Position numbers and translations under genes: made by a program
From: Clostridia bacterium
Lineage (GTDB): Bacteria > Bacillota > Clostridia > TANB77 > CAG-465
DNA: 64,000 bases
Direction of reading: 5' to 3'
Assembly: GCA_045652705.1 (NCBI GenBank)
Contig: JAZRUV010000029.1
Location: 15,389-79,388, forward strand
Notes under the pieces: model-generated
The model's database searches: none
Told to the model about the DNA's origin: nothing
Seen by the model: the letters and a program-made list of their open reading frames with translations, nothing else
Part shown: positions 2,110 through 62,613 of the stretch, piece after piece
How positions within the stretch are numbered: position 1 is the first letter of the stretch
Layout of the letters: every line of letters starts with the position of its first letter

Positions 2110-2137
2110 TTGCCTATGTAAAATTGGAGGTGTTTTT

Positions 2138-2491
2138 ATGGCATTAATACGACCTTGTGCAGATTTGAGAAATAATTATAACGAAATTTCTAAAATTTGT
2201 CACGAAACAAAAGAAGCAATGTACATAACTAAAAATGGTGCAAATGATTTGGTTATATTAAGCAATGAAGCATATGATGAGTTAGTTAATAATAGAGAAA
2301 CAGATGATGAGAGAATAGATAGACTTGTAGCTGCGCATTTTGAAAAGCATTATGAAAGTTTTGAAGAATTTCAAAAAGAAATATTTGAAAAAATAGACCA
2401 AGCTTTTAGAGATATTGAACAAGGACATTATATACCAATGGAAAATGCTGTAGCAGAGCTGGAGGAAAAATATGGACTATCTGAAAGCTAA
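2138..2491 (+). CDS. Type II antitoxin, Phd/YefM family
   Basis: MALIRPCADLRNNYNEISKICHETKEAMYITKNGANDLVILSNEAYDEL is a typical Phd/YefM N-terminal domain; RBS ggagg lies 8 nt upstream; overlaps the downstream toxin by 20 nt. Confidence 0.75.
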   Translation: MALIRPCADLRNNYNEISKICHETKEAMYITKNGANDLVILSNEAYDELVNNRETDDERIDRLVAAHFEKHYESFEEFQKEIFEKIDQAFRDIEQGHYIPMENAVAELEEKYGLSES

Positions 2492-2789
2492 AAAATATGA
2501 GGTTATATGGCTTAATAGTTTCAAACAAGAATTAAGCCATATATATCATTATTTATCTATAAATTTAAACAATAGATTAATTGTTAAAAGACTTCACAAA
2601 AAAGTTTTAAATTCATTATTTTATTTGTCTTATAGTCCCAATATATATCAAAAAATAGAGCATTCAAATAATGTTAGAAAAATTACAATAGACAAATATG
2701 TTGTTATGTATACAGTAGATGAGAAGTTGCGAAAAGTATATATTTTACATATTTTTCATGGTAATCAAGATTATTTAAGTAAAATTTAA
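2472..2789 (+). CDS. Type II toxin, RelE/ParE family
   Basis: 105 aa; C-terminal KYVVMYTVDEKLRKVYILHIFHGNQDY matches the RelE/ParE fold signature; translationally coupled to the antitoxin. Confidence 0.75.
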   Translation: MDYLKAKKYEVIWLNSFKQELSHIYHYLSINLNNRLIVKRLHKKVLNSLFYLSYSPNIYQKIEHSNNVRKITIDKYVVMYTVDEKLRKVYILHIFHGNQDYLSKI

Positions 2790-3304: not shown

Positions 3305-4366
3305 GTGGATATTAAGTATATAAAATTTAGAGACAAAAAAAGAACTAAAATACTTTTTGCAATATTAATTTTTCTTATAGTAATATATGTAGGATTACAG
3401 TATATTGAATCAAGCGAAGTTTTAGCAAATAAAGTTATATTTGAAAAAGATATTAAAGATTTAGAATTTGTTATAGGCGGTGAAGCTTGTGGAATAAAAC
3501 TTCTTGCTACAGGCGTTTTAGTAGTAGAAGTGGATAACAATAGTGTAGATTTAAATGTTTCGGATATAATACTTGAGGTAAACGGTATAGCTATAGATAG
3601 TAACGCAGAGCTTATAGAATATATAAATAAAGAAGATGTAAAAGGAAAAGAAATTACACTTACTGTACAAAGTAATAATAAAACAAAAAAGGTAAAAGTT
3701 ACGCCTAAATTAAATGATGAAAGCGGAAAATACGAATTGGGACTTTGGGTAAAAGATAGTAGTGCGGGAGTTGGAATGGTTACATTTTATGAATTAACAC
3801 ATAAATATTTTGCAGCCCTTGGACACGGAATAACAGAAACCAGTAAAAATATAGTACTTCCAATACAAAGTGGGGCAATAGTTAAGTCTAAAATTACTTC
3901 TATAAATAAGGGACTTCCTAAACAACCTGGAGATATTAGAGGAACAATATATAAAGATGTGTATGGACAGATTAGAAAAAATACAATAAATGGTATATAT
4001 GGTAGTTTGGAAAACACAGAAATATTGAATCAAAAGAATATAATAAAAGCAGCATATAAAAATGAAATAAAAACAGGTGAGGCTAAGCTTTATTGTACGT
4101 TAGAAGATAACGAAACTAAAGCGTATAACATTGAAATAAAAAATGTATTAGATACAGTAAGTTCAAACAAGAATATGATAATAGAAGTAACAGATAAATC
4201 TTTACTAGAAAAAACAGGTGGCATAGTTCAAGGAATGAGCGGTAGTCCAATAGTCCAAGATGGAAAATTAGTAGGAGCTGTAACACACGTATTTTTAAAT
4301 GACCCAACAAAAGGATATGCTGTATTTATAGAAAATATGATACAAGATATGATGACTATTGAATAA
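3305..4366 (+). CDS. spoIVB: Stage IV sporulation protein B (SpoIVB, S55 peptidase); GTG start
   Basis: N-terminal TM segment, PDZ region, and the C-terminal GIVQGMSGSPIVQDGKLVGAVTHVF serine-protease motif characteristic of SpoIVB. Confidence 0.85.
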   Translation: MDIKYIKFRDKKRTKILFAILIFLIVIYVGLQYIESSEVLANKVIFEKDIKDLEFVIGGEACGIKLLATGVLVVEVDNNSVDLNVSDIILEVNGIAIDSNAELIEYINKEDVKGKEITLTVQSNNKTKKVKVTPKLNDESGKYELGLWVKDSSAGVGMVTFYELTHKYFAALGHGITETSKNIVLPIQSGAIVKSKITSINKGLPKQPGDIRGTIYKDVYGQIRKNTINGIYGSLENTEILNQKNIIKAAYKNEIKTGEAKLYCTLEDNETKAYNIEIKNVLDTVSSNKNMIIEVTDKSLLEKTGGIVQGMSGSPIVQDGKLVGAVTHVFLNDPTKGYAVFIENMIQDMMTIE

Positions 4367-4459
4367 TAAATTATATATAAATAGAATTTTTGTTTTAAAA
4401 GCATAGGTTTTTTGCCTATGTTTTTAAGTTTTTATATATCAATGTTATACGGTGCTAAA

Positions 4460-4488
4460 TTGACATAATGTAAAACGCGTGGTATAAT
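4460..4488 (+). promoter_or_regulatory. Promoter of the Cys-rich gene pair: -35 TTGACA (4460-4465), 17 nt, extended -10 TGgTATAAT (4480-4488)
   Basis: Near-consensus sigma-A elements read directly from the sequence. Confidence 0.5.
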
Positions 4489-4538
4489 ATTCTTGCAAAT
4501 AAACAAAAACCAATTAGTAATTATTATAGGAGAATATT

Positions 4539-4865
4539 ATGGAAAACAACAATATTTATGACATTATTAAAGGTAACGGTTGTATTGAGGGTGGTACATA
4601 TGAAGCGTACGTTAAAGCCCGGGAAGTAATTTTAAACTGTTTCGATGGAGGGCATAAATTAATTATTTTAAGCAATGAAGTAAACGTCTCAGAGTTCATA
4701 GAAGCAGTAAAGGTTCTTATGACATTTGCAAGTAAGCATCCTGATGCAAGAGTAGAACTTTATGAATGCAATATGAGCTGCAAACATTTCAAAATGAAAC
4801 CGTGTCCGGGAGACTGTATGGTTTCAGATAAAGCGACCAAACGCTGCCCGTTTTATGAAGAGTAA
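4539..4865 (+). CDS. Small Cys-rich protein, paralog A (putative metal-binding; no family recognised)
   Basis: 108 aa; RBS aggagaa; five Cys in the C-terminal half (CNMSC, CPGDC, CPFY); GC and codon use (CCG/CGG/GCG) atypical for the surrounding genes. Confidence 0.6.
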   Translation: MENNNIYDIIKGNGCIEGGTYEAYVKAREVILNCFDGGHKLIILSNEVNVSEFIEAVKVLMTFASKHPDARVELYECNMSCKHFKMKPCPGDCMVSDKATKRCPFYEE

Positions 4866-4881
4866 TTTGAGGAGGAGTTTT

Positions 4882-5214
4882 ATGGAAAATATCAATCAGC
4901 TTATTAAAGAGAACGGTTGTATTCACGGCGGAAGCAAAGAGGCGGCAATTAAAGTACGTGCGGTTTTGAAAAACATCTCGAGGGCAAACGAAAACGTTTT
5001 ACTTTTAGGTAGAAGTGGCGTAGATGCTGAGGAGTTTTTAGAAGCTGTTCGCAAGCTGATTGCTTATGCAGAAATTGGTACAGATACAAAAGTAGAGCTT
5101 TGGTACTGCGAAACAGATTGCGTAAGAGCTCCGAATCCGAATTGCTTGTACAGACAACATACATTTAGTACAGGAACTAAAATTTGTCCTCATTATATCG
5201 AAGAAGACAAATAA
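4882..5214 (+). CDS. Small Cys-rich protein, paralog B
   Basis: About 111 aa from the ATG after RBS gaggagg; aligns with paralog A along its length (MEN-I--LIKENGCI-GG--EA-IK-RAVL ... VEL--CE-DC ... CP-Y-EE); intrinsic terminator follows at 5216-5252. Confidence 0.6.
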   Translation: MENINQLIKENGCIHGGSKEAAIKVRAVLKNISRANENVLLLGRSGVDAEEFLEAVRKLIAYAEIGTDTKVELWYCETDCVRAPNPNCLYRQHTFSTGTKICPHYIEEDK

Positions 5215-5215
5215 A

Positions 5216-5252
5216 AAAGAAAAAAGCACTTCAAATTTGAGGTGCTTTTTCT
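5216..5252 (+). terminator. Rho-independent terminator (aaaaagcacttcaaatttgaggtgcttttt)
   Basis: Stem gcacttcaaa/tttgaggtgc followed by a T-tract. Confidence 0.6.
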
Positions 5253-5323
5253 TACCTTTTTTATAAATTACTTGCATTTTATCCTCAAATTATATAAACT
5301 ATTTATATATAAAGAGGGATTTT

Positions 5324-5665
5324 ATGAAAAAAGAAGGAATGAGCTTAATAACACTAGTAATTACAGTTGTAGTCTTAATAATTATTACCGGTGTTACAAT
5401 TATAGGTATAGAGAATACAGGAATAATAGATAAGGCTGAAATGGTTGTAGAGGACATGAACTTAAAAAATTTGGAGCAACTAGCCAATATGTCTTATGCT
5501 AATATTTATTTGGAAAACCTATCTAAAGGCATAAGGAGAGAAATTACAGGTGAAGAGGTAAAAGAACGTATGCTAAAAGATGGGGTTAAAGAGGAAGCTT
5601 TAAGTAAATATGATATAATAGTAGAAAATGGGGATGTATTTGTTAAAGTCAAGGAGGAAGAATGA
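5324..5665 (+). CDS. Small secreted or anchored protein with a pilin-like N-terminus (G-MSLITLVITVVVLIII...NTGIIDKAEMVVED)
   Basis: 113 aa; short basic N-terminus, Gly, then a roughly 22-aa hydrophobic stretch; the N-terminal 45 aa are paralogous to those of the 47634-49040 protein. Confidence 0.5.
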   Translation: MKKEGMSLITLVITVVVLIIITGVTIIGIENTGIIDKAEMVVEDMNLKNLEQLANMSYANIYLENLSKGIRREITGEEVKERMLKDGVKEEALSKYDIIVENGDVFVKVKEEE

Positions 5666-6321
5666 AAGTAGCAATAATTGGAGCAATGGATAAAGAAATA
5701 GAAAGATATTTGGAATTATATAATCCAGAACTTGTAGATGATAAGAGAAAAATATATGTTAAAGATAATGTTGTTATTGCAGGAAGTGGAATTGGAAAAG
5801 TAAATTCTTCTATGATGACTCAACATTTAATAGATAAATATAATGTGGATGTAATAATTAGCTCAGGCTGTGCGGGAAGTTTAACAAATGATTTAAAAGT
5901 GCTTGATGTTATAATTCCATCATATGTTACTTATCATGATTTTTTACCGGAAAGAGTTATGAGATATAGTGTACCAGACGAAGGAAATATAACTGTAGAT
6001 GCAAGGTTAAGGGAACTATTTAAAGAGACCATAGAAGATATGGAAAATGTACATTATGTGGAGACTCCAATATGTAGTGGGGACTGTTATGTAACAGATA
6101 GTGGAACTGCTAAAAAGATAGTAGAAAGAACAGGTGCTACAGTAGTAGATATGGAAAGTGCATCTATTGCACACGTGAGCCGAAAAAACAATATACCATT
6201 TATAACAATAAGGACAATTTCAGATTTTGCTGATGGAAATGATAACATGGAAAAACAAGCAGCAGATGTATCATCAGAAATAATATATAAATGTGTAGAA
6301 AAAATATTAACAAACAGTTGA
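5662..6321 (+). CDS. mtnN: 5'-methylthioadenosine/S-adenosylhomocysteine nucleosidase
   Basis: MKVAIIGAMDKEI...GIGKVNSSMMTQHLIDKYNVDVIISSGCAGSL is the MtnN/Pfs signature. Confidence 0.85.
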   Translation: MKVAIIGAMDKEIERYLELYNPELVDDKRKIYVKDNVVIAGSGIGKVNSSMMTQHLIDKYNVDVIISSGCAGSLTNDLKVLDVIIPSYVTYHDFLPERVMRYSVPDEGNITVDARLRELFKETIEDMENVHYVETPICSGDCYVTDSGTAKKIVERTGATVVDMESASIAHVSRKNNIPFITIRTISDFADGNDNMEKQAADVSSEIIYKCVEKILTNS

Positions 6322-10342: not shown

Positions 10343-11170
10343 ATGGAAAACAGTATTAAATTATTTGAAGACAAAAGAGTAAGAGCAGCGTGGAATGAAG
10401 ACGAGGAGAAATGGTATTTCTCTGTAATTGACATTGTTGGAGCATTAACAGATAGTGATTATCAACAAGCAAGAAATTACTGGAAATGGCTAAAAAACAA
10501 ATTAAATGAAGAGGGAAGTGAATTGGTTAGTAATACTAACCAGTTGAAAATGGAGGCTAGTGACGGAAAAATGAGATTAACAGATGTAGCAGATGTTGAA
10601 CAAATATTTAGACTTATACAGTCTATTCCTTCTAAGAAGGCAGAACCTTTTAAATTATGGCTAGCTAAAGTTGGAAAAGAAAGAATAGATGAAACTTATG
10701 ACCCTGAAATTGCTATAAATAGAGCCTTAGCAACTTATAGAAGAAAAGGTTATTCCGAATCATGGATTAACCAAAGATTAAAATCTATAGAAGTGCGCAA
10801 AGACTTTACAGATGAACTACAAAGAGTCGGAATTAACAAAAGTAAAGATTTTGCCATATTAACAAATACCTTAACACAAGTTTGGAGTGGACATACTGTA
10901 AAAGAATATAAAAATATAAAGGGACTAAAGAAAGAAAACTTAAGAGACAATATGACAAATACAGAACTAGTATTCAATATGCTCGCTGAAATTTCTTCTA
11001 CGGAAATATCAAAGTGCAAAGATAAACACGGATTTGAGGAAGCAGAGGATTCTGTTATTACAGGTGGTGGTATAGCTAAAAATGCAAGAGAACAATTAGA
11101 AAGAGTTACTGGAAAGAAAGTAATAACAGATGAAAAGCCTAAAAGAAAAGTAAAAGAATTAAGTGAATAG
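10343..11170 (+). CDS. Bro-N domain protein (phage antirepressor / DinD-like family paralog)
   Basis: N-terminal FEDKRVRAAWNEDEEKWYFSVIDIVGAL is Bro-N-like; C-terminal GGGIAKNAREQLERVTGKK resembles the DinD C-terminus; RBS aggaagggg. Confidence 0.6.
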   Translation: MENSIKLFEDKRVRAAWNEDEEKWYFSVIDIVGALTDSDYQQARNYWKWLKNKLNEEGSELVSNTNQLKMEASDGKMRLTDVADVEQIFRLIQSIPSKKAEPFKLWLAKVGKERIDETYDPEIAINRALATYRRKGYSESWINQRLKSIEVRKDFTDELQRVGINKSKDFAILTNTLTQVWSGHTVKEYKNIKGLKKENLRDNMTNTELVFNMLAEISSTEISKCKDKHGFEEAEDSVITGGGIAKNAREQLERVTGKKVITDEKPKRKVKELSE

Positions 11171-31131: not shown

Positions 31132-31218
31132 GTCGGAATGGTGGAATTGGCAGACGCGTCAGACTCAAAATCTGATATGGGTAACCATGTGTGGGTTCAA
31201 GTCCCACTTCCGGCACCA
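31132..31218 (+). tRNA. tRNA-Leu (anticodon CAA), class II with long variable arm, CCA encoded
   Basis: Cloverleaf: acceptor gtcggaa/ttccggc, D-arm GGTGGAATTGGCAGAC, anticodon loop CTCAAAA, T-arm gtgggTTCAAGTcccac; close to Bacillus tRNA-Leu sequences. Confidence 0.9.
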
Positions 31219-31235
31219 AATTATAATAAAACTCG

Positions 31236-31264
31236 GACTACAGTAGTTCGAGTTTTATTATACA
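31236..31264 (+). terminator. Terminator after the tRNA (aaaactcggactacagtagttcgagtttta)
   Basis: Stem aactcgga/ttcgagtt followed by a T-tract. Confidence 0.6.
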
Positions 31265-31419
31265 CAAAAACTGTAACATAGGCATCGGTTGACTTATGTA
31301 AACAAATATGCTATAATGTTAACTGTAATACGTTTTTAATAATTTCAACGATTGGGGGATTTAATGAAGTTTTTTATTTTTTAATACAACACTATAACAA
31401 TATTAAGGAGAATGTAATT

Positions 31420-31761
31420 ATGTTAAAGAAACTTACAGCTTGGTTGGTCTGTTTTGGACTTAGCTATGTAGTGCAAAGCTTTGGATGGACAGGAAATGCT
31501 GAGGCGTTTATGTATATATACCTTGGATATACAACGCTTCTTATGGTGGGGGCTGCAATCATTTTTTGTTTGGCTCAAAGAGAGTCTTGGACAGTCAAGT
31601 TGGGGTCGGTAGCAATGGTTATTTTAACTTCGGCCGCTGGAATTTTATTTGCCATTGGCGTAACGTGGCTTGCAAGCAAATTGTTTAATGTGAATTTCTA
31701 TGTTGTATATCAGGTTATTACCTTTGTCATGTGCTTTGTTAAGTACAAAACTAAAAGGTGA
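31420..31761 (+). CDS. Hypothetical membrane protein
   Basis: 113 aa, 3-4 TM helices; RBS aaggagaatg. Confidence 0.4.
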   Translation: MLKKLTAWLVCFGLSYVVQSFGWTGNAEAFMYIYLGYTTLLMVGAAIIFCLAQRESWTVKLGSVAMVILTSAAGILFAIGVTWLASKLFNVNFYVVYQVITFVMCFVKYKTKR

Positions 31762-61152: not shown

Positions 61153-62046
61153 ATGAATACGAAAAAAGTCCCGATGCATGCATTTATTGTAAATTTTTTA
61201 AAAGTTGTAAATCGGACAGAGGAACACATTTGTGTACTTTTGAATGCTATTGCTCCAGTAGAAAGAGCGGCGGATGTTATTCTTTGTGAAAGCTTAGATA
61301 GTAAGCTAGAAAGTTTGCTAGAGCCAATACTCACTTATCCTGAACACTTCCATTTAAGTCTTGATGCTGAAAATATAAAGCTTAAAAATCCTGAAACACT
61401 AGATGAACTTGTAGAGCACTGGCCGGTAGATACTACTGTTACAGAAGCCATTAGGGATGAGCTAAAAAAGTACGAGTCCCCTATGATGTATGGAGGAGTG
61501 GCTTTAGACTATGCGGCAGAAAACGAGAGATATATTAGTGGTAGCACAAAATATATTGATTGGTTGTGGGATAGGCTAGAGCAAAATTATAGACCTAATA
61601 CTCGTTTCTTAAATGATAGTTGTAGGAGAACAGTAGGCGATTTAGCAAACATTGTTCGTATTTCAAGTTTACATACGCTCCTTAGTAGATACTATAGTAA
61701 GAATTGTATGGACTATTGTGGGGATGATAGAGAAAGTGCAACATATATTTTCCATTATTCTAGAAACGGCAAACAACGTTATTTTAAAGTCGCGAGAGAA
61801 GTGGTAAAGGATGTAAGAGGAAACATTATAAGTTATTCTGTAAAGGAACACAAACCAGTAAAAAATGCCCCATATTTTCCAGATGTTGTTTTGTGTGTAC
61901 CTAGCGAGTTGTTGGAGGAGAGAGTGATAGTTTTTAATAAGTTAAATGAACTATTTAAAAAGGCAAGAGATATTTCTTTAAGTTATGATGCAATTCAATA
62001 TGATTTAGGCATAATTTACGGTAAAATTGAAGATCCCAGAGATTAA
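61153..62046 (+). CDS. Hypothetical protein (297 aa), cassette gene 1, GC-enriched foreign composition
   Basis: RBS taggaggct; GC about 10 points above its neighbours, with CGG/GCG/CCG codons; no recognised domain. Confidence 0.5.
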   Translation: MNTKKVPMHAFIVNFLKVVNRTEEHICVLLNAIAPVERAADVILCESLDSKLESLLEPILTYPEHFHLSLDAENIKLKNPETLDELVEHWPVDTTVTEAIRDELKKYESPMMYGGVALDYAAENERYISGSTKYIDWLWDRLEQNYRPNTRFLNDSCRRTVGDLANIVRISSLHTLLSRYYSKNCMDYCGDDRESATYIFHYSRNGKQRYFKVAREVVKDVRGNIISYSVKEHKPVKNAPYFPDVVLCVPSELLEERVIVFNKLNELFKKARDISLSYDAIQYDLGIIYGKIEDPRD

Positions 62047-62061
62047 AAGGAGGAAAGATAT

Positions 62062-62613
62062 ATGGCAGAAAAAACATTTTGGGAGCGATTTAATGAAAGC
62101 TTGGAAAACCAAAAACGGTTAGTTGAAAGTACTGACTACTTTGACTGGCTGTATGAATTCACGAAAAAATATCCGAAGTTTACAGATACAGATTGGCTGT
62201 ATGATAGAGAGAGCATATCTGAAAGTGATTATAGTCAGGTAGAACTTCTTACAGATTTCTTTACAGCTGTTGACCAGTATCATAGAAGAAATCGCATGGG
62301 AGCAAATTCCGAGGGCTATGCAGCTTGGTATAACATTAAATACAAGGATGCATATTTTGCGATTGGTGTTCGTGTAGGACAAGGCGCCCAAAACTTTGTG
62401 ACAAGGTATAAACGGTATCAAGAGATGATTCCTGACCCCTTCATCGAGTTTGAGGCCATCTTGGAAAACAAAGAGAATCCTGGGCTTGCCGAAAAGAATA
62501 AAGCACTTCTGAGGTTGCAAATCGCAGCGAATGATCTTCGGACTTTGGGAGTACCTAGAGAAATTATAGAAAATACAATTAAGCAAGTTTTTGATAAAAA
62601 AGAAAATCCCTAG
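62062..62613 (+). CDS. Hypothetical protein (183 aa), cassette gene 2
   Basis: RBS aaggaggaa; same composition as gene 1; 16-nt intergenic spacing suggests co-transcription. Confidence 0.5.
   Translation: MAEKTFWERFNESLENQKRLVESTDYFDWLYEFTKKYPKFTDTDWLYDRESISESDYSQVELLTDFFTAVDQYHRRNRMGANSEGYAAWYNIKYKDAYFAIGVRVGQGAQNFVTRYKRYQEMIPDPFIEFEAILENKENPGLAEKNKALLRLQIAANDLRTLGVPREIIENTIKQVFDKKENP

What the first reader, a model, noticed from the sequence alone, without database searches (positions are those of the whole stretch)
4440..5260. Tandem paralogous Cys-rich small proteins with foreign nucleotide composition and their own promoter and terminator
The two genes (108 and about 111 aa) align end to end. 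They share an N-terminal ENGCI-GG segment and a C-terminal Cys cluster (C-x3-C, C-x3/4-C, CP-Y). GC content and codon choice (CCG, CGG, GCG, CGC) are conspicuously different from the flanking spoIVB and mtnN genes. I recognise no family, so they may be metal-binding regulators or a small two-component module acquired horizontally.
Basis: seen in the sequence. Interest (0 to 1): 0.55.

Follow-up and report, generated by a model that had tools for sequence, protein, structure and literature searches.

The report
Duplicated small four-cysteine protein, unknown family
Two adjacent genes encode related small acidic proteins with four never-changing cysteines; they belong to an undescribed, mobile-element-associated family of gut and rumen Clostridia that is real and conserved but has no known function.

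Summary
ORF-A (4539-4865, 108 aa) and ORF-B (4882-5214, 110 aa) are true paralogs (36% identity, E=3e-20). They form a two-gene operon with a perfect sigma-A promoter (TTGACA-17-TGgTATAAT) and its own terminator. Both are under purifying selection (dN/dS about 0.1 and 0.3). Codon use is atypical: GC3 is 0.34/0.32 against 0.20±0.05 for the window, ATA is almost absent, and CCG is over-used.

No Pfam, NCBIfam, PHROG, PADLOC, PDB-sequence or Foldseek match exists. An exhaustive search of 1.84 billion representatives finds only 58 relatives. All are about 110 aa, acidic, and come from low-GC gut/rumen Clostridia. They share an N-terminal GG(T/S)KEA helical domain and four invariant cysteines (C-x3-C-x7-C-x13-CP).

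The elevated GC, ATA/AGA avoidance and strong own promoter are family-wide, not special to this genome. In a human-gut clade the gene sits at the end of a serine-recombinase/Mob_Pre/Bro-N mobilizable element. In the window's clade it occupies a variable slot between spoIVB and mtnN, with allele swapping, a B-only variant and an A/B hybrid.

Elsewhere the gene is single-copy, so the pair is a lineage-specific duplication, not an obligate two-part module. Best reading: horizontally circulating cytoplasmic Cys4 metal-binding (Zn or Fe-S) proteins acting through protein contacts. The mechanism is inferred, not shown.

The parts
4394..4428 (+). Terminator-like hairpin ending the upstream spoIVB unit; it isolates the A-B operon on the 5' side
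   Evidence: 15-pair stem followed by a T run
4460..4488 (+). Sigma-A (sigma-70 type) promoter: TTGACA, 17-nt spacer, TGgTATAAT (12/12 consensus plus extended -10)
   Evidence: The same promoter is conserved in L005, L001, L014 and L016. Family-wide enrichment of TGnTATAAT promoters: mean score 11.3 against 9.9 in controls.
4489..4538 (+). About 50-nt AT-rich 5' UTR with RBS AGGAG at 4528-4532. The motif CCAATTAGTAATTATTATAGGAG is conserved in relatives.
   Evidence: no Rfam match
4539..4865 (+). ORF-A, 108 aa, pI 5.6. N-terminal three-helix domain with GGTYEA motif. C-terminal Cys domain with invariant C77, C81, C89, C103 (codons 4767-4769, 4779-4781, 4803-4805, 4845-4847) plus C93.
   Evidence: dN/dS 0.06-0.16 against orthologs
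4870..4875 (+). RBS AGGAGG of ORF-B, 6 nt before ATG 4882. The 16-nt A-B spacer implies a bicistronic transcript.
   Evidence: sequence read directly
4882..5214 (+). ORF-B, 110 aa, pI 5.9. GGSKEA motif. Invariant C76, C80, C88, C102 (codons 5107-5109, 5119-5121, 5143-5145, 5185-5187). It evolves faster than A and is a mosaic allele.
   Evidence: dN/dS 0.15-0.45; mosaic identity profile
5221..5260 (+). Intrinsic terminator (13-pair stem AAAAAGCACTTCA/TGAGGTGCTTTTT plus T-rich tail) ending the operon
   Evidence: conserved in L005 and L055

Best explanation
ORF-A and ORF-B are a lineage-specific tandem duplication of one gene. That gene belongs to an undescribed family restricted to low-GC gut and rumen Clostridia. 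Family members are about 110 aa, acidic and cytoplasmic.

Shown: each protein has an N-terminal three-helix domain (motif GG-[TS]-K-E-A) and a C-terminal loop-rich domain built on four invariant cysteines (C-x3-C-x7-C-x13-C-P). The pair is transcribed as a bicistron from a consensus sigma-A promoter with an extended -10 and ends at its own terminator. This predicts strong constitutive expression.

Shown: the gene behaves as a self-contained, horizontally circulating cassette.
- It keeps its own promoter and a codon usage less AT-extreme than every host examined.
- In a human-gut clade it is the terminal gene of a serine-recombinase/Mob_Pre/Bro-N mobilizable element.
- In the window's clade it occupies a variable slot between spoIVB and mtnN where alleles are swapped by recombination.

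Inferred: the four cysteines hold one metal centre, either structural Zn(II) or an Fe-S cluster. The protein acts stoichiometrically by binding another protein, as a modulator of a host or mobile-element process, not as an enzyme or a direct DNA binder. A and B may work as homo- or heterodimers through the helical domain.
For: Real genes and paralogs: E=3e-20. dN/dS is 0.06-0.16 for A and 0.15-0.45 for B across five or six orthologous loci.

Family definition: 58 representatives among 1.84 billion proteins, all 210 aa or shorter with no added domains. C76/C80/C88/C102 are invariant over 47 sequences at 29% mean column identity.

Structure: the AF2 model of A with a 47-sequence alignment has pLDDT 81 and pTM 0.68, with helices 6-12, 20-35 and 50-66 and an ordered but irregular C-terminal part.

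Cytoplasmic and acidic: median pI 5.2. No hydrophobic N-terminal signal-like or membrane-spanning segment is visible in the sequences, by inspection only; no predictor was run.

Expression signals.

Duplication is lineage-specific: the A and B clades are sisters in an NJ tree. The gene is single-copy in L006-L011 and L018-L054.

Mobility:
- The homology block between L018 and L022 starts about 245 nt upstream of the family gene and runs through Bro-N to the serine recombinase, at two different chromosomal sites. Mob_Pre is confirmed.
- In L033 only the gene itself is shared with L018.
- Mosaic pattern: window B is 97-100% identical to L005 where A is 85%. Against L014 this reverses, with A at 92-97% and B at 50-68%.
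- The slot between spoIVB and mtnN holds A-B, A-X-B, B only, or an A/B hybrid in different relatives.

Family-wide codon signature: GC3 is above the neighbours in 34 of 35 loci. ATA/Ile is 0.22 against 0.55, and AGA/Arg 0.44 against 0.73.

Dimer hint: natural fusions P0033 and P0073 carry two N-domains and one Cys domain.
Against: - No metal, partner or phenotype has been observed. Zn and Fe-S cannot be told apart from sequence.
- The Cys spacing matches no known metal-site motif.
- No hit in phage, IMG/VR or plasmid collections, so the mobile-element link rests on integrated elements in metagenome contigs.
- In many loci (L006, L009, L033, L039, L047) the neighbours are ordinary housekeeping genes.
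- The GC/codon signature could reflect selection on the mRNA, not gene flow.
- No conserved neighbour points to a pathway.
Confidence: 0.5

Rival explanations
1. Redox or iron-sulfur sensor or carrier. The four cysteines ligate a [4Fe-4S] or [2Fe-2S] cluster. The protein then acts either as a small acidic electron carrier, or as a cluster-dependent regulator that binds the transcription machinery. The latter would be a clostridial functional analogue of actinobacterial WhiB-like proteins.
For: - Small, acidic, strongly expressed, four invariant Cys, with the last followed by a near-invariant Pro as in ferredoxin motifs.
- The hosts appear to be gut and rumen Clostridia, which are generally strict anaerobes (inference from habitat).
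- Like Wbl proteins, the family is confined to one bacterial class and occurs on both chromosomes and mobile elements.
Against: - No Fer4, Whib, rubredoxin or other Fe-S Pfam hit in any of 47 members.
- The spacing C-x3-C-x7-C-x13-C fits no known cluster motif.
- No structural neighbour in the PDB.
- Strain-level allele swapping and element-end location are unusual for core electron carriers.
Confidence: 0.2
2. Secreted two-peptide bacteriocin-like pair. The N-terminal 17-19 residues ending in GG would be a double-glycine leader. The four cysteines would form two disulfides in an exported protein of about 90 aa.
For: - Tandem paralogous small genes with their own promoter and terminator.
- A conserved GG at residues 16-19.
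- Strain-variable alleles, as expected of conflict genes.
Against: - The leader consensus is not met: positions -7 and -15 are not hydrophobic, there is no E-L at -8/-7, and the residues after GG (TKEA) are the most conserved part.
- AF2 packs residues 6-35 into the folded domain with pLDDT 86-90.
- The proteins are acidic, not cationic.
- No C39-peptidase ABC transporter or immunity gene appears beside the gene in any of about 20 distinct contexts.
- The gene is single-copy in most lineages.
Confidence: 0.05
3. Ordinary vertically inherited core genes. Their higher GC3 would simply reflect very high expression (translational selection), not foreign origin.
For: - Perfect promoter.
- C-ending two-fold codons are raised to 0.42, as in rplS (0.50) and glycolytic genes (about 0.3).
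- Conserved synteny in related MAGs.
Against: - Highly expressed genes of the window do not avoid ATA (0.55-0.76) and do not use G-ending four-fold codons (0-0.06). A and B do both, with ATA at 0.12/0 and G4 at 0.21/0.12. They share this with the window's other atypical ORFs.
- Mosaic alleles and presence/absence variants.
- Residence in a mobilizable element in another clade.
Confidence: 0.12
4. RiPP precursor peptides: a leader domain plus a Cys-rich core modified by radical-SAM/SPASM maturases, as in ranthipeptides and sactipeptides.
For: - Conserved N-domain followed by a more variable Cys-rich C-terminus.
- Radical-SAM/SPASM genes lie 3-5 kb away in two loci, L016 and L045.
Against: - No Nif11, NHLP or SCIFF match.
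- No maturase near the gene in the window or in most contexts.
- The C-domain is predicted ordered and its Cys positions are strictly fixed.
Confidence: 0.03

Closest known systems
WhiB-like (Wbl) proteins of Actinobacteria and their phages (Pfam PF02467)
   Same: - About 80-120 aa with four invariant cysteines.
- Restricted to one bacterial class.
- Found on chromosomes and on mobile elements.
- Often present as multiple paralogs.
These points come from general knowledge of the family.
   Different: - No sequence or fold similarity.
- The Cys cluster is C-terminal with spacing C-x3-C-x7-C-x13-C, not C-xn-C-x2-C-x5-C.
- No G[VI]WGG turn and no basic tail.
- The hosts are Clostridia.
Moron-type or cargo genes of prophages and integrative/mobilizable elements
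   Same: - A single gene flanked by its own promoter and terminator.
- Composition differs from the surrounding DNA.
- Sits at the edge of an element.
- Presence or absence varies between strains.
   Different: - Not found in any phage, IMG/VR or plasmid record searched.
- In the window's clade no recombinase or relaxase accompanies it.
Small Cys4 metalloproteins: rubredoxin, zinc-ribbon proteins, and CsfB/Gin-type Zn-binding anti-sigma factors of Firmicutes
   Same: Small, soluble, with four conserved Cys. Regulation by protein binding is plausible. This is general knowledge; no homology was detected.
   Different: - Those use paired CxxC knuckles; this family has none.
- This family has an extra 65-residue helical domain.
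- No Pfam or PDB match.
Acidic anti-restriction or anti-defence proteins in leading regions of transferable elements (for example ArdA)
   Same: - Small and acidic.
- Strong promoter.
- Near the relaxase/recombinase end of a mobilizable element, next to Abi_2, PemK and ParE-type genes.
   Different: No homology to any such protein. The Cys4 centre is not a feature of ArdA-type DNA mimics. The function is untested. PADLOC gives nothing.

Membership tests
New family defined here (GG-[TS]-K-E-A / Cys4 small proteins of Clostridia) | About 100-128 aa; N-terminal GG(T/S)KEA motif; EF-x-x-A-V-x-x-L helix; invariant D and four Cys (C-x3/4-C-x7/9-C-x13+-C-P) | tested here: met
   Both ORFs score 1e-34 to 2e-35 against the family HMM. 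Invariant columns are listed. A has GGTYEA and B has GGSKEA.
WhiB-like (PF02467) | Pfam Whib match; C-xn-C-x2-C-x5-C cluster; G[VI]WGG turn | tested here: not met
   No Whib hit in A, B or 47 relatives at E<=1. The motifs are absent from the alignment.
4Fe-4S ferredoxins / rubredoxins / zinc ribbons | CxxCxxCxxxCP or paired CxxC knuckles; matching Pfam or PDB hit | tested here: not met
   No such Pfam hit. No PDB sequence hit with full-length or C-domain profiles. No Foldseek hit. Only the terminal C-P is shared.
Metal-binding protein (generic) | Bound Zn or Fe-S demonstrated, or Cys side chains converging in a reliable structure | not testable with these tools
   Only inferred from four invariant Cys.
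Double-glycine-leader (class II) bacteriocins | LS-xx-EL-xx-I-x-GG leader; adjacent C39-peptidase ABC exporter and immunity gene; small cationic mature peptide | tested here: not met
   The leader positions do not fit. No exporter or immunity genes appear among the Pfam-annotated neighbours. pI is 5.6 and 5.9.
RiPP precursors (Nif11/NHLP leaders, SCIFF) | Leader-family HMM match; adjacent radical-SAM/SPASM or other maturase | tested here: not met
   No Pfam or NCBIfam match. A maturase lies within 5 kb in only 2 contexts and in none in the window.
Horizontally mobile cassette (moron-like cargo) | Own promoter and terminator; composition unlike the host; found inside a mobile element or at non-homologous sites; strain-variable | tested here: met
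   Promoter and terminator. Composition. Mobile element and different sites. Variants.
   One family gene per locus in L006-L013 and L018-L054. L012 has B only. L055 has an A/B hybrid.
Known anti-phage defence systems (PADLOC) / phage protein families (PHROGs) | HMM match | tested here: not met
   (only isolated hits with E>=0.003, none recurring)

The most novel reading that the evidence does not exclude
The family is a new class of mobile-element-borne, strongly expressed Cys4 (possibly Fe-S) effector. After transfer it would bind a host protein, for example a component of the transcription machinery or a defence system. This would make it a clostridial counterpart of WhiB-like or anti-defence proteins. 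The fast-evolving, recombining B copy would track variable host targets while A keeps the ancestral role.
Probability: 0.12. Interest if true: 0.65.

Novelty: new variant of a known kind. Interest (0 to 1): 0.38.

Why it matters
This work defines a compact protein family that current databases do not describe. It has no Pfam, NCBIfam or PDB relative and no structural neighbour, and every source calls it 'hypothetical protein'. The family recurs in human-gut and ruminant Clostridia. It carries a clear signature: four invariant cysteines, a strong promoter of its own, and non-host codon usage in every host.

If the proteins prove to be metal-dependent modulators carried by mobilizable elements, they would add a new small effector type to the little-known mobile-element biology of uncultured gut Clostridia. 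As it stands, this is a well-delimited unknown and not a surprising mechanism.

Tried and rejected
Database searches that found no family:
- Pfam, NCBIfam, PHROGs and PADLOC on A and B, and on 20-47 relatives. Only scattered non-recurring hits with E>0.0008.
- PDB sequence searches with a single sequence, the full-length profile and a C-domain profile. Nothing.
- Rfam on 4000-5800. Only sub-threshold noise around the terminator.
- Full-text search for the motif GGTKEAC. 0 papers.

Structure:
- The first AF2 run (B, 16 sequences) was too poor to use, at pLDDT 57.
- The second (A, 47 sequences) reached pLDDT 81. Foldseek against PDB and BFVD gave no match at E<=0.001.

Mobile-element collections:
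- tblastn against the phage and plasmid collections, and two IMG/VR scans. No relatives.

Technical failures:
- A genome-contig scan with the diverse alignment failed for lack of a conserved stretch. The narrower alignment found one locus.
- An exact look-up of P0001 returned no contig.

Ideas rejected:
- A conserved functional partner. Neighbour clustering found none across clades.
- A third copy in the window. None.
- Positive selection. dN/dS stayed below 0.5 in both domains.
- Bacteriocin, RiPP, toxin-antitoxin and high-expression-only explanations, for the reasons given under the rival explanations.

Full report
WHAT IS THERE

Between spoIVB (3305-4366; Peptidase_S55 + PDZ) and a pilin-like small ORF plus an MtnN-type nucleosidase (5324-6321) lies a compact transcription unit.
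- The spoIVB unit ends at a hairpin at 4394-4428.
- A sigma-70-type promoter follows that matches consensus at all 12 positions, with a 17-nt spacer and a TG extended -10 (4460-4488).
- After a UTR of about 50 nt and an AGGAG ribosome-binding site comes ORF-A (4539-4865, 108 aa).
- Sixteen bases later, after AGGAGG, comes ORF-B (ATG 4882 to 5214, 110 aa). The longer 119-aa reading from 4855 overlaps A and lacks an RBS.
- A 13-pair hairpin with a T tail closes the unit (5221-5250).
- No Rfam family matches the region.

ARE THE GENES REAL AND RELATED?

A and B align end to end at 36% identity, E=3e-20. Orthologous pairs exist in other Clostridia MAG contigs at the same position (L005, L014/15; L001-4 and L016/17 with an extra small ORF between them).

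Nei-Gojobori estimates give dN/dS of 0.06-0.16 for A and 0.15-0.45 for B, in both the N- and C-terminal halves. Both are therefore protein-coding genes under purifying selection, and B is the faster copy.

COMPOSITION

The window has 31% GC. Its 66 long ORFs have a mean GC3 of 0.198 (sd 0.051). A and B have 0.339 and 0.324. Their synonymous-codon log-likelihood under the window's own usage lies 2.0 and 2.6 sd below the mean.

The departure is not what high expression gives in this genome. The genes for rplS, GAPDH and enolase raise only the C-ending two-fold codons. They keep ATA as the main Ile codon (0.55-0.76) and use almost no G-ending four-fold codons. A and B almost never use ATA (1 of 17 Ile codons) and use CCG and GCG. 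The window's other codon-atypical ORFs do the same (31420-31761, 61153-62613).

THE FAMILY

Pfam, NCBIfam, PHROGs, PADLOC and PDB sequence searches find nothing. A word-indexed search of 5.8 billion proteins found 15 relatives of B. An exhaustive HMMER profile search of 1.84 billion cluster representatives found only 58 at E<=0.001, all 210 aa or shorter. A second profile search added about 30 more close variants. Every source name is 'hypothetical protein'.

An alignment of 47 full-length members (29% mean column identity) shows four invariant cysteines, which in B are C76, C80, C88 and C102. It also shows a near-invariant G17, A21, L59, D68 and P103. The consensus is GGTKEAC ... EFxxAVxxLxAFA ... 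DxxPxxWxCDxDCx7CPGEx9-13CPxYxxEDK. Members are acidic, with a median pI of 5.2 (A 5.6, B 5.9). By inspection of the sequences they show no signal-like or membrane-spanning segment.

With a 47-sequence alignment, AlphaFold2 models A at pLDDT 81 and pTM 0.68. The model has three helices (6-12, 20-35, 50-66) and an ordered but irregular Cys-rich C-terminal part. Foldseek finds no neighbour in the PDB or BFVD at E<=0.001. Profile searches of the PDB with the whole protein or the C-domain alone are also empty.

DISTRIBUTION AND CONTEXT

All contigs carrying the family are low-GC (22-39%). They come from human-gut, ruminant and similar metagenomes, or from 'Clostridia bacterium' MAGs.

Outside the window's clade there is one copy per locus. 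An NJ tree places the A and B clades as sisters. The tandem pair is therefore a duplication within this lineage.

No neighbour is conserved across clades. Three kinds of context were seen.
- A Ruminococcus-like group has sortase, the family gene, a 139-aa membrane protein and FtsW.
- Some loci are purely housekeeping (L033, L039).
- In a common human-gut clade the gene lies next to Bro-N, small ORFs, a Mob_Pre relaxase and a serine recombinase, with Abi_2 or other variable genes on the other side.

Comparing two insertions of that element (L018 against L022) is informative. Homology begins about 245 nt upstream of the family gene and runs through the recombinase, while the outer flanks differ. 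The gene is therefore the terminal cargo of a mobilizable element. In L033 only the gene itself is shared with L018. No relative was found in the phage, IMG/VR or plasmid collections.

FAMILY-WIDE TRAITS

- In 34 of 35 distinct loci the family gene has higher GC3 than its neighbours (mean z +2.6).
- Pooled over 41 genes, ATA/Ile is 0.22 against 0.55 in 340 neighbouring genes. AGA/Arg is 0.44 against 0.73, and G-ending four-fold codons are twice as frequent.
- A TGnTATAAT promoter 50-65 nt upstream is the rule. The mean promoter score is 11.3 against 9.9 for other upstream regions, and half of family loci score >=11.5 against 12% of controls.

A VARIABLE SLOT IN THE WINDOW'S CLADE

The spoIVB-mtnN interval holds different gene sets in close relatives:
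- A-B in the window, L005 and L014;
- NUDIX-HTH-LemA-A-X-B in L001;
- HTH-LemA-B only in L012;
- LemA-A-X-B followed by different downstream genes in L016;
- a single hybrid gene with an A-type N-domain and a B-type C-domain in L055, with the promoter, UTR and terminator intact.

The identity profile is mosaic. The window's B is 97-100% identical to L005 over 4968-5207 (pS 0.04), where A is about 85% (pS 0.43-0.57). Against L014 the pattern reverses, with A at 92-97% and B at 50-68%. The flanks stay near 90% in both comparisons. B exists in at least two C-domain allele types that do not follow the flanks. This indicates recombinational allele exchange.

INTERPRETATION

Shown:
- a real, conserved, lineage-specific tandem duplication of a novel small Cys4 protein;
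- transcription signals of its own that predict strong sigma-A-dependent expression;
- non-host codon usage that is family-wide;
- residence on a mobilizable element in one clade, and recombinational turnover in this one.

Inferred:
- The four invariant cysteines form one metal site. The terminal C-P recalls ferredoxin motifs, but the spacing fits no known Zn or Fe-S motif, so the two cannot be distinguished here.
- The acidic charge, the small size and the absence of enzymatic or DNA-binding signatures favour action by binding another protein.
- Natural fusions with two N-domains and one Cys domain (P0033, P0073) hint that the helical domains pair, so A and B may form homo- or heterodimers.

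The persistent codon signature in hosts of 22-39% GC fits continuing gene flow from a mobile pool. Selection against ATA and AGA codons cannot be excluded.

RIVALS

- An Fe-S redox sensor or carrier is compatible with everything seen, but it has no positive evidence.
- A double-glycine bacteriocin pair fails on the leader consensus, the charge, the predicted fold of the N-terminus and the absence of an exporter.
- RiPP precursors fail on the absence of leader families and maturases.
- 'Just highly expressed core genes' fails on the codon pattern and the mosaicism.

VERDICT

A recent acquisition and an obligate two-gene module do not.

The finding is a cleanly delimited, undescribed small-protein family of modest interest. 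Its function remains open, and simple biochemistry could test it.

Noticed in passing
window 31132-31761: tRNA-Leu(CAA) at 31132-31218 is followed by the most codon-atypical ORF of the window (31420-31761). That ORF is a 113-aa hydrophobic protein with GC3 0.395 and ATA/Ile 0.14, and it has no Pfam match. It may be a small islet inserted next to the tRNA.
   Followed up: partly
window 61153-62613: Two adjacent ORFs (297 and 183 aa) have atypical codon usage (GC3 0.26/0.36, ATA/Ile 0.25/0.20) and no Pfam match. This is another candidate foreign segment.
   Followed up: partly
window 2135-2789: A Phd/YefM antitoxin and ParE toxin pair lies between recG and the DUF3792/spoIVB genes. It is conserved at this position in the related MAG contigs.
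   Followed up: partly
window 5324-5665: A 113-aa ORF with a prepilin-like hydrophobic N-terminus (MKKEGMSLITLVITVVVL...) overlaps the start of mtnN by 4 nt. It has no Pfam match but is conserved next to mtnN in all relatives (51-100% identity).
   Followed up: partly
window 10343-11170: A Bro-N domain protein lies directly after the ffh-rpsP-rimM-trmD-rplS block, as in L001. Bro-N proteins are also the immediate neighbours of the family gene in the human-gut mobilizable element.
   Followed up: no
window 4968-5300 vs L005 8090-8420: The 3' half of ORF-B, the terminator and the downstream spacer are 97-100% identical to L005, while surrounding genes are 85-92% identical. This is probably a recent recombination tract, but an RNA-level constraint was not excluded.
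   Followed up: partly
L055 121-429: A single hybrid gene (A-type N-domain fused to B-type Cys domain, lacking the first helix) occupies the same slot upstream of the pilin-like ORF and mtnN. Its promoter and terminator are intact. This looks like an unequal crossover between the tandem paralogs.
   Followed up: yes
L001 7668-7967; L016 1762-2049: An extra 95-99-aa GC-rich ORF (GC 0.40) sits between A and B in two relatives. It has no Pfam match and no similarity to the family.
   Followed up: partly
L018 6754-11499 / L022 7757-13569: An integrative mobilizable element of uncultured human-gut Clostridia is found at two different chromosomal sites. It carries the family gene, Bro-N, about 100-aa ORFs, a serine recombinase and, in some copies, a Mob_Pre relaxase. 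Abi_2 or other variable genes lie at its edge.
   Followed up: partly
P0033 (210 aa), P0073 (182 aa): Natural fusion proteins carry two N-terminal helical domains but only one Cys domain. This suggests that the helical domains pair.
   Followed up: no
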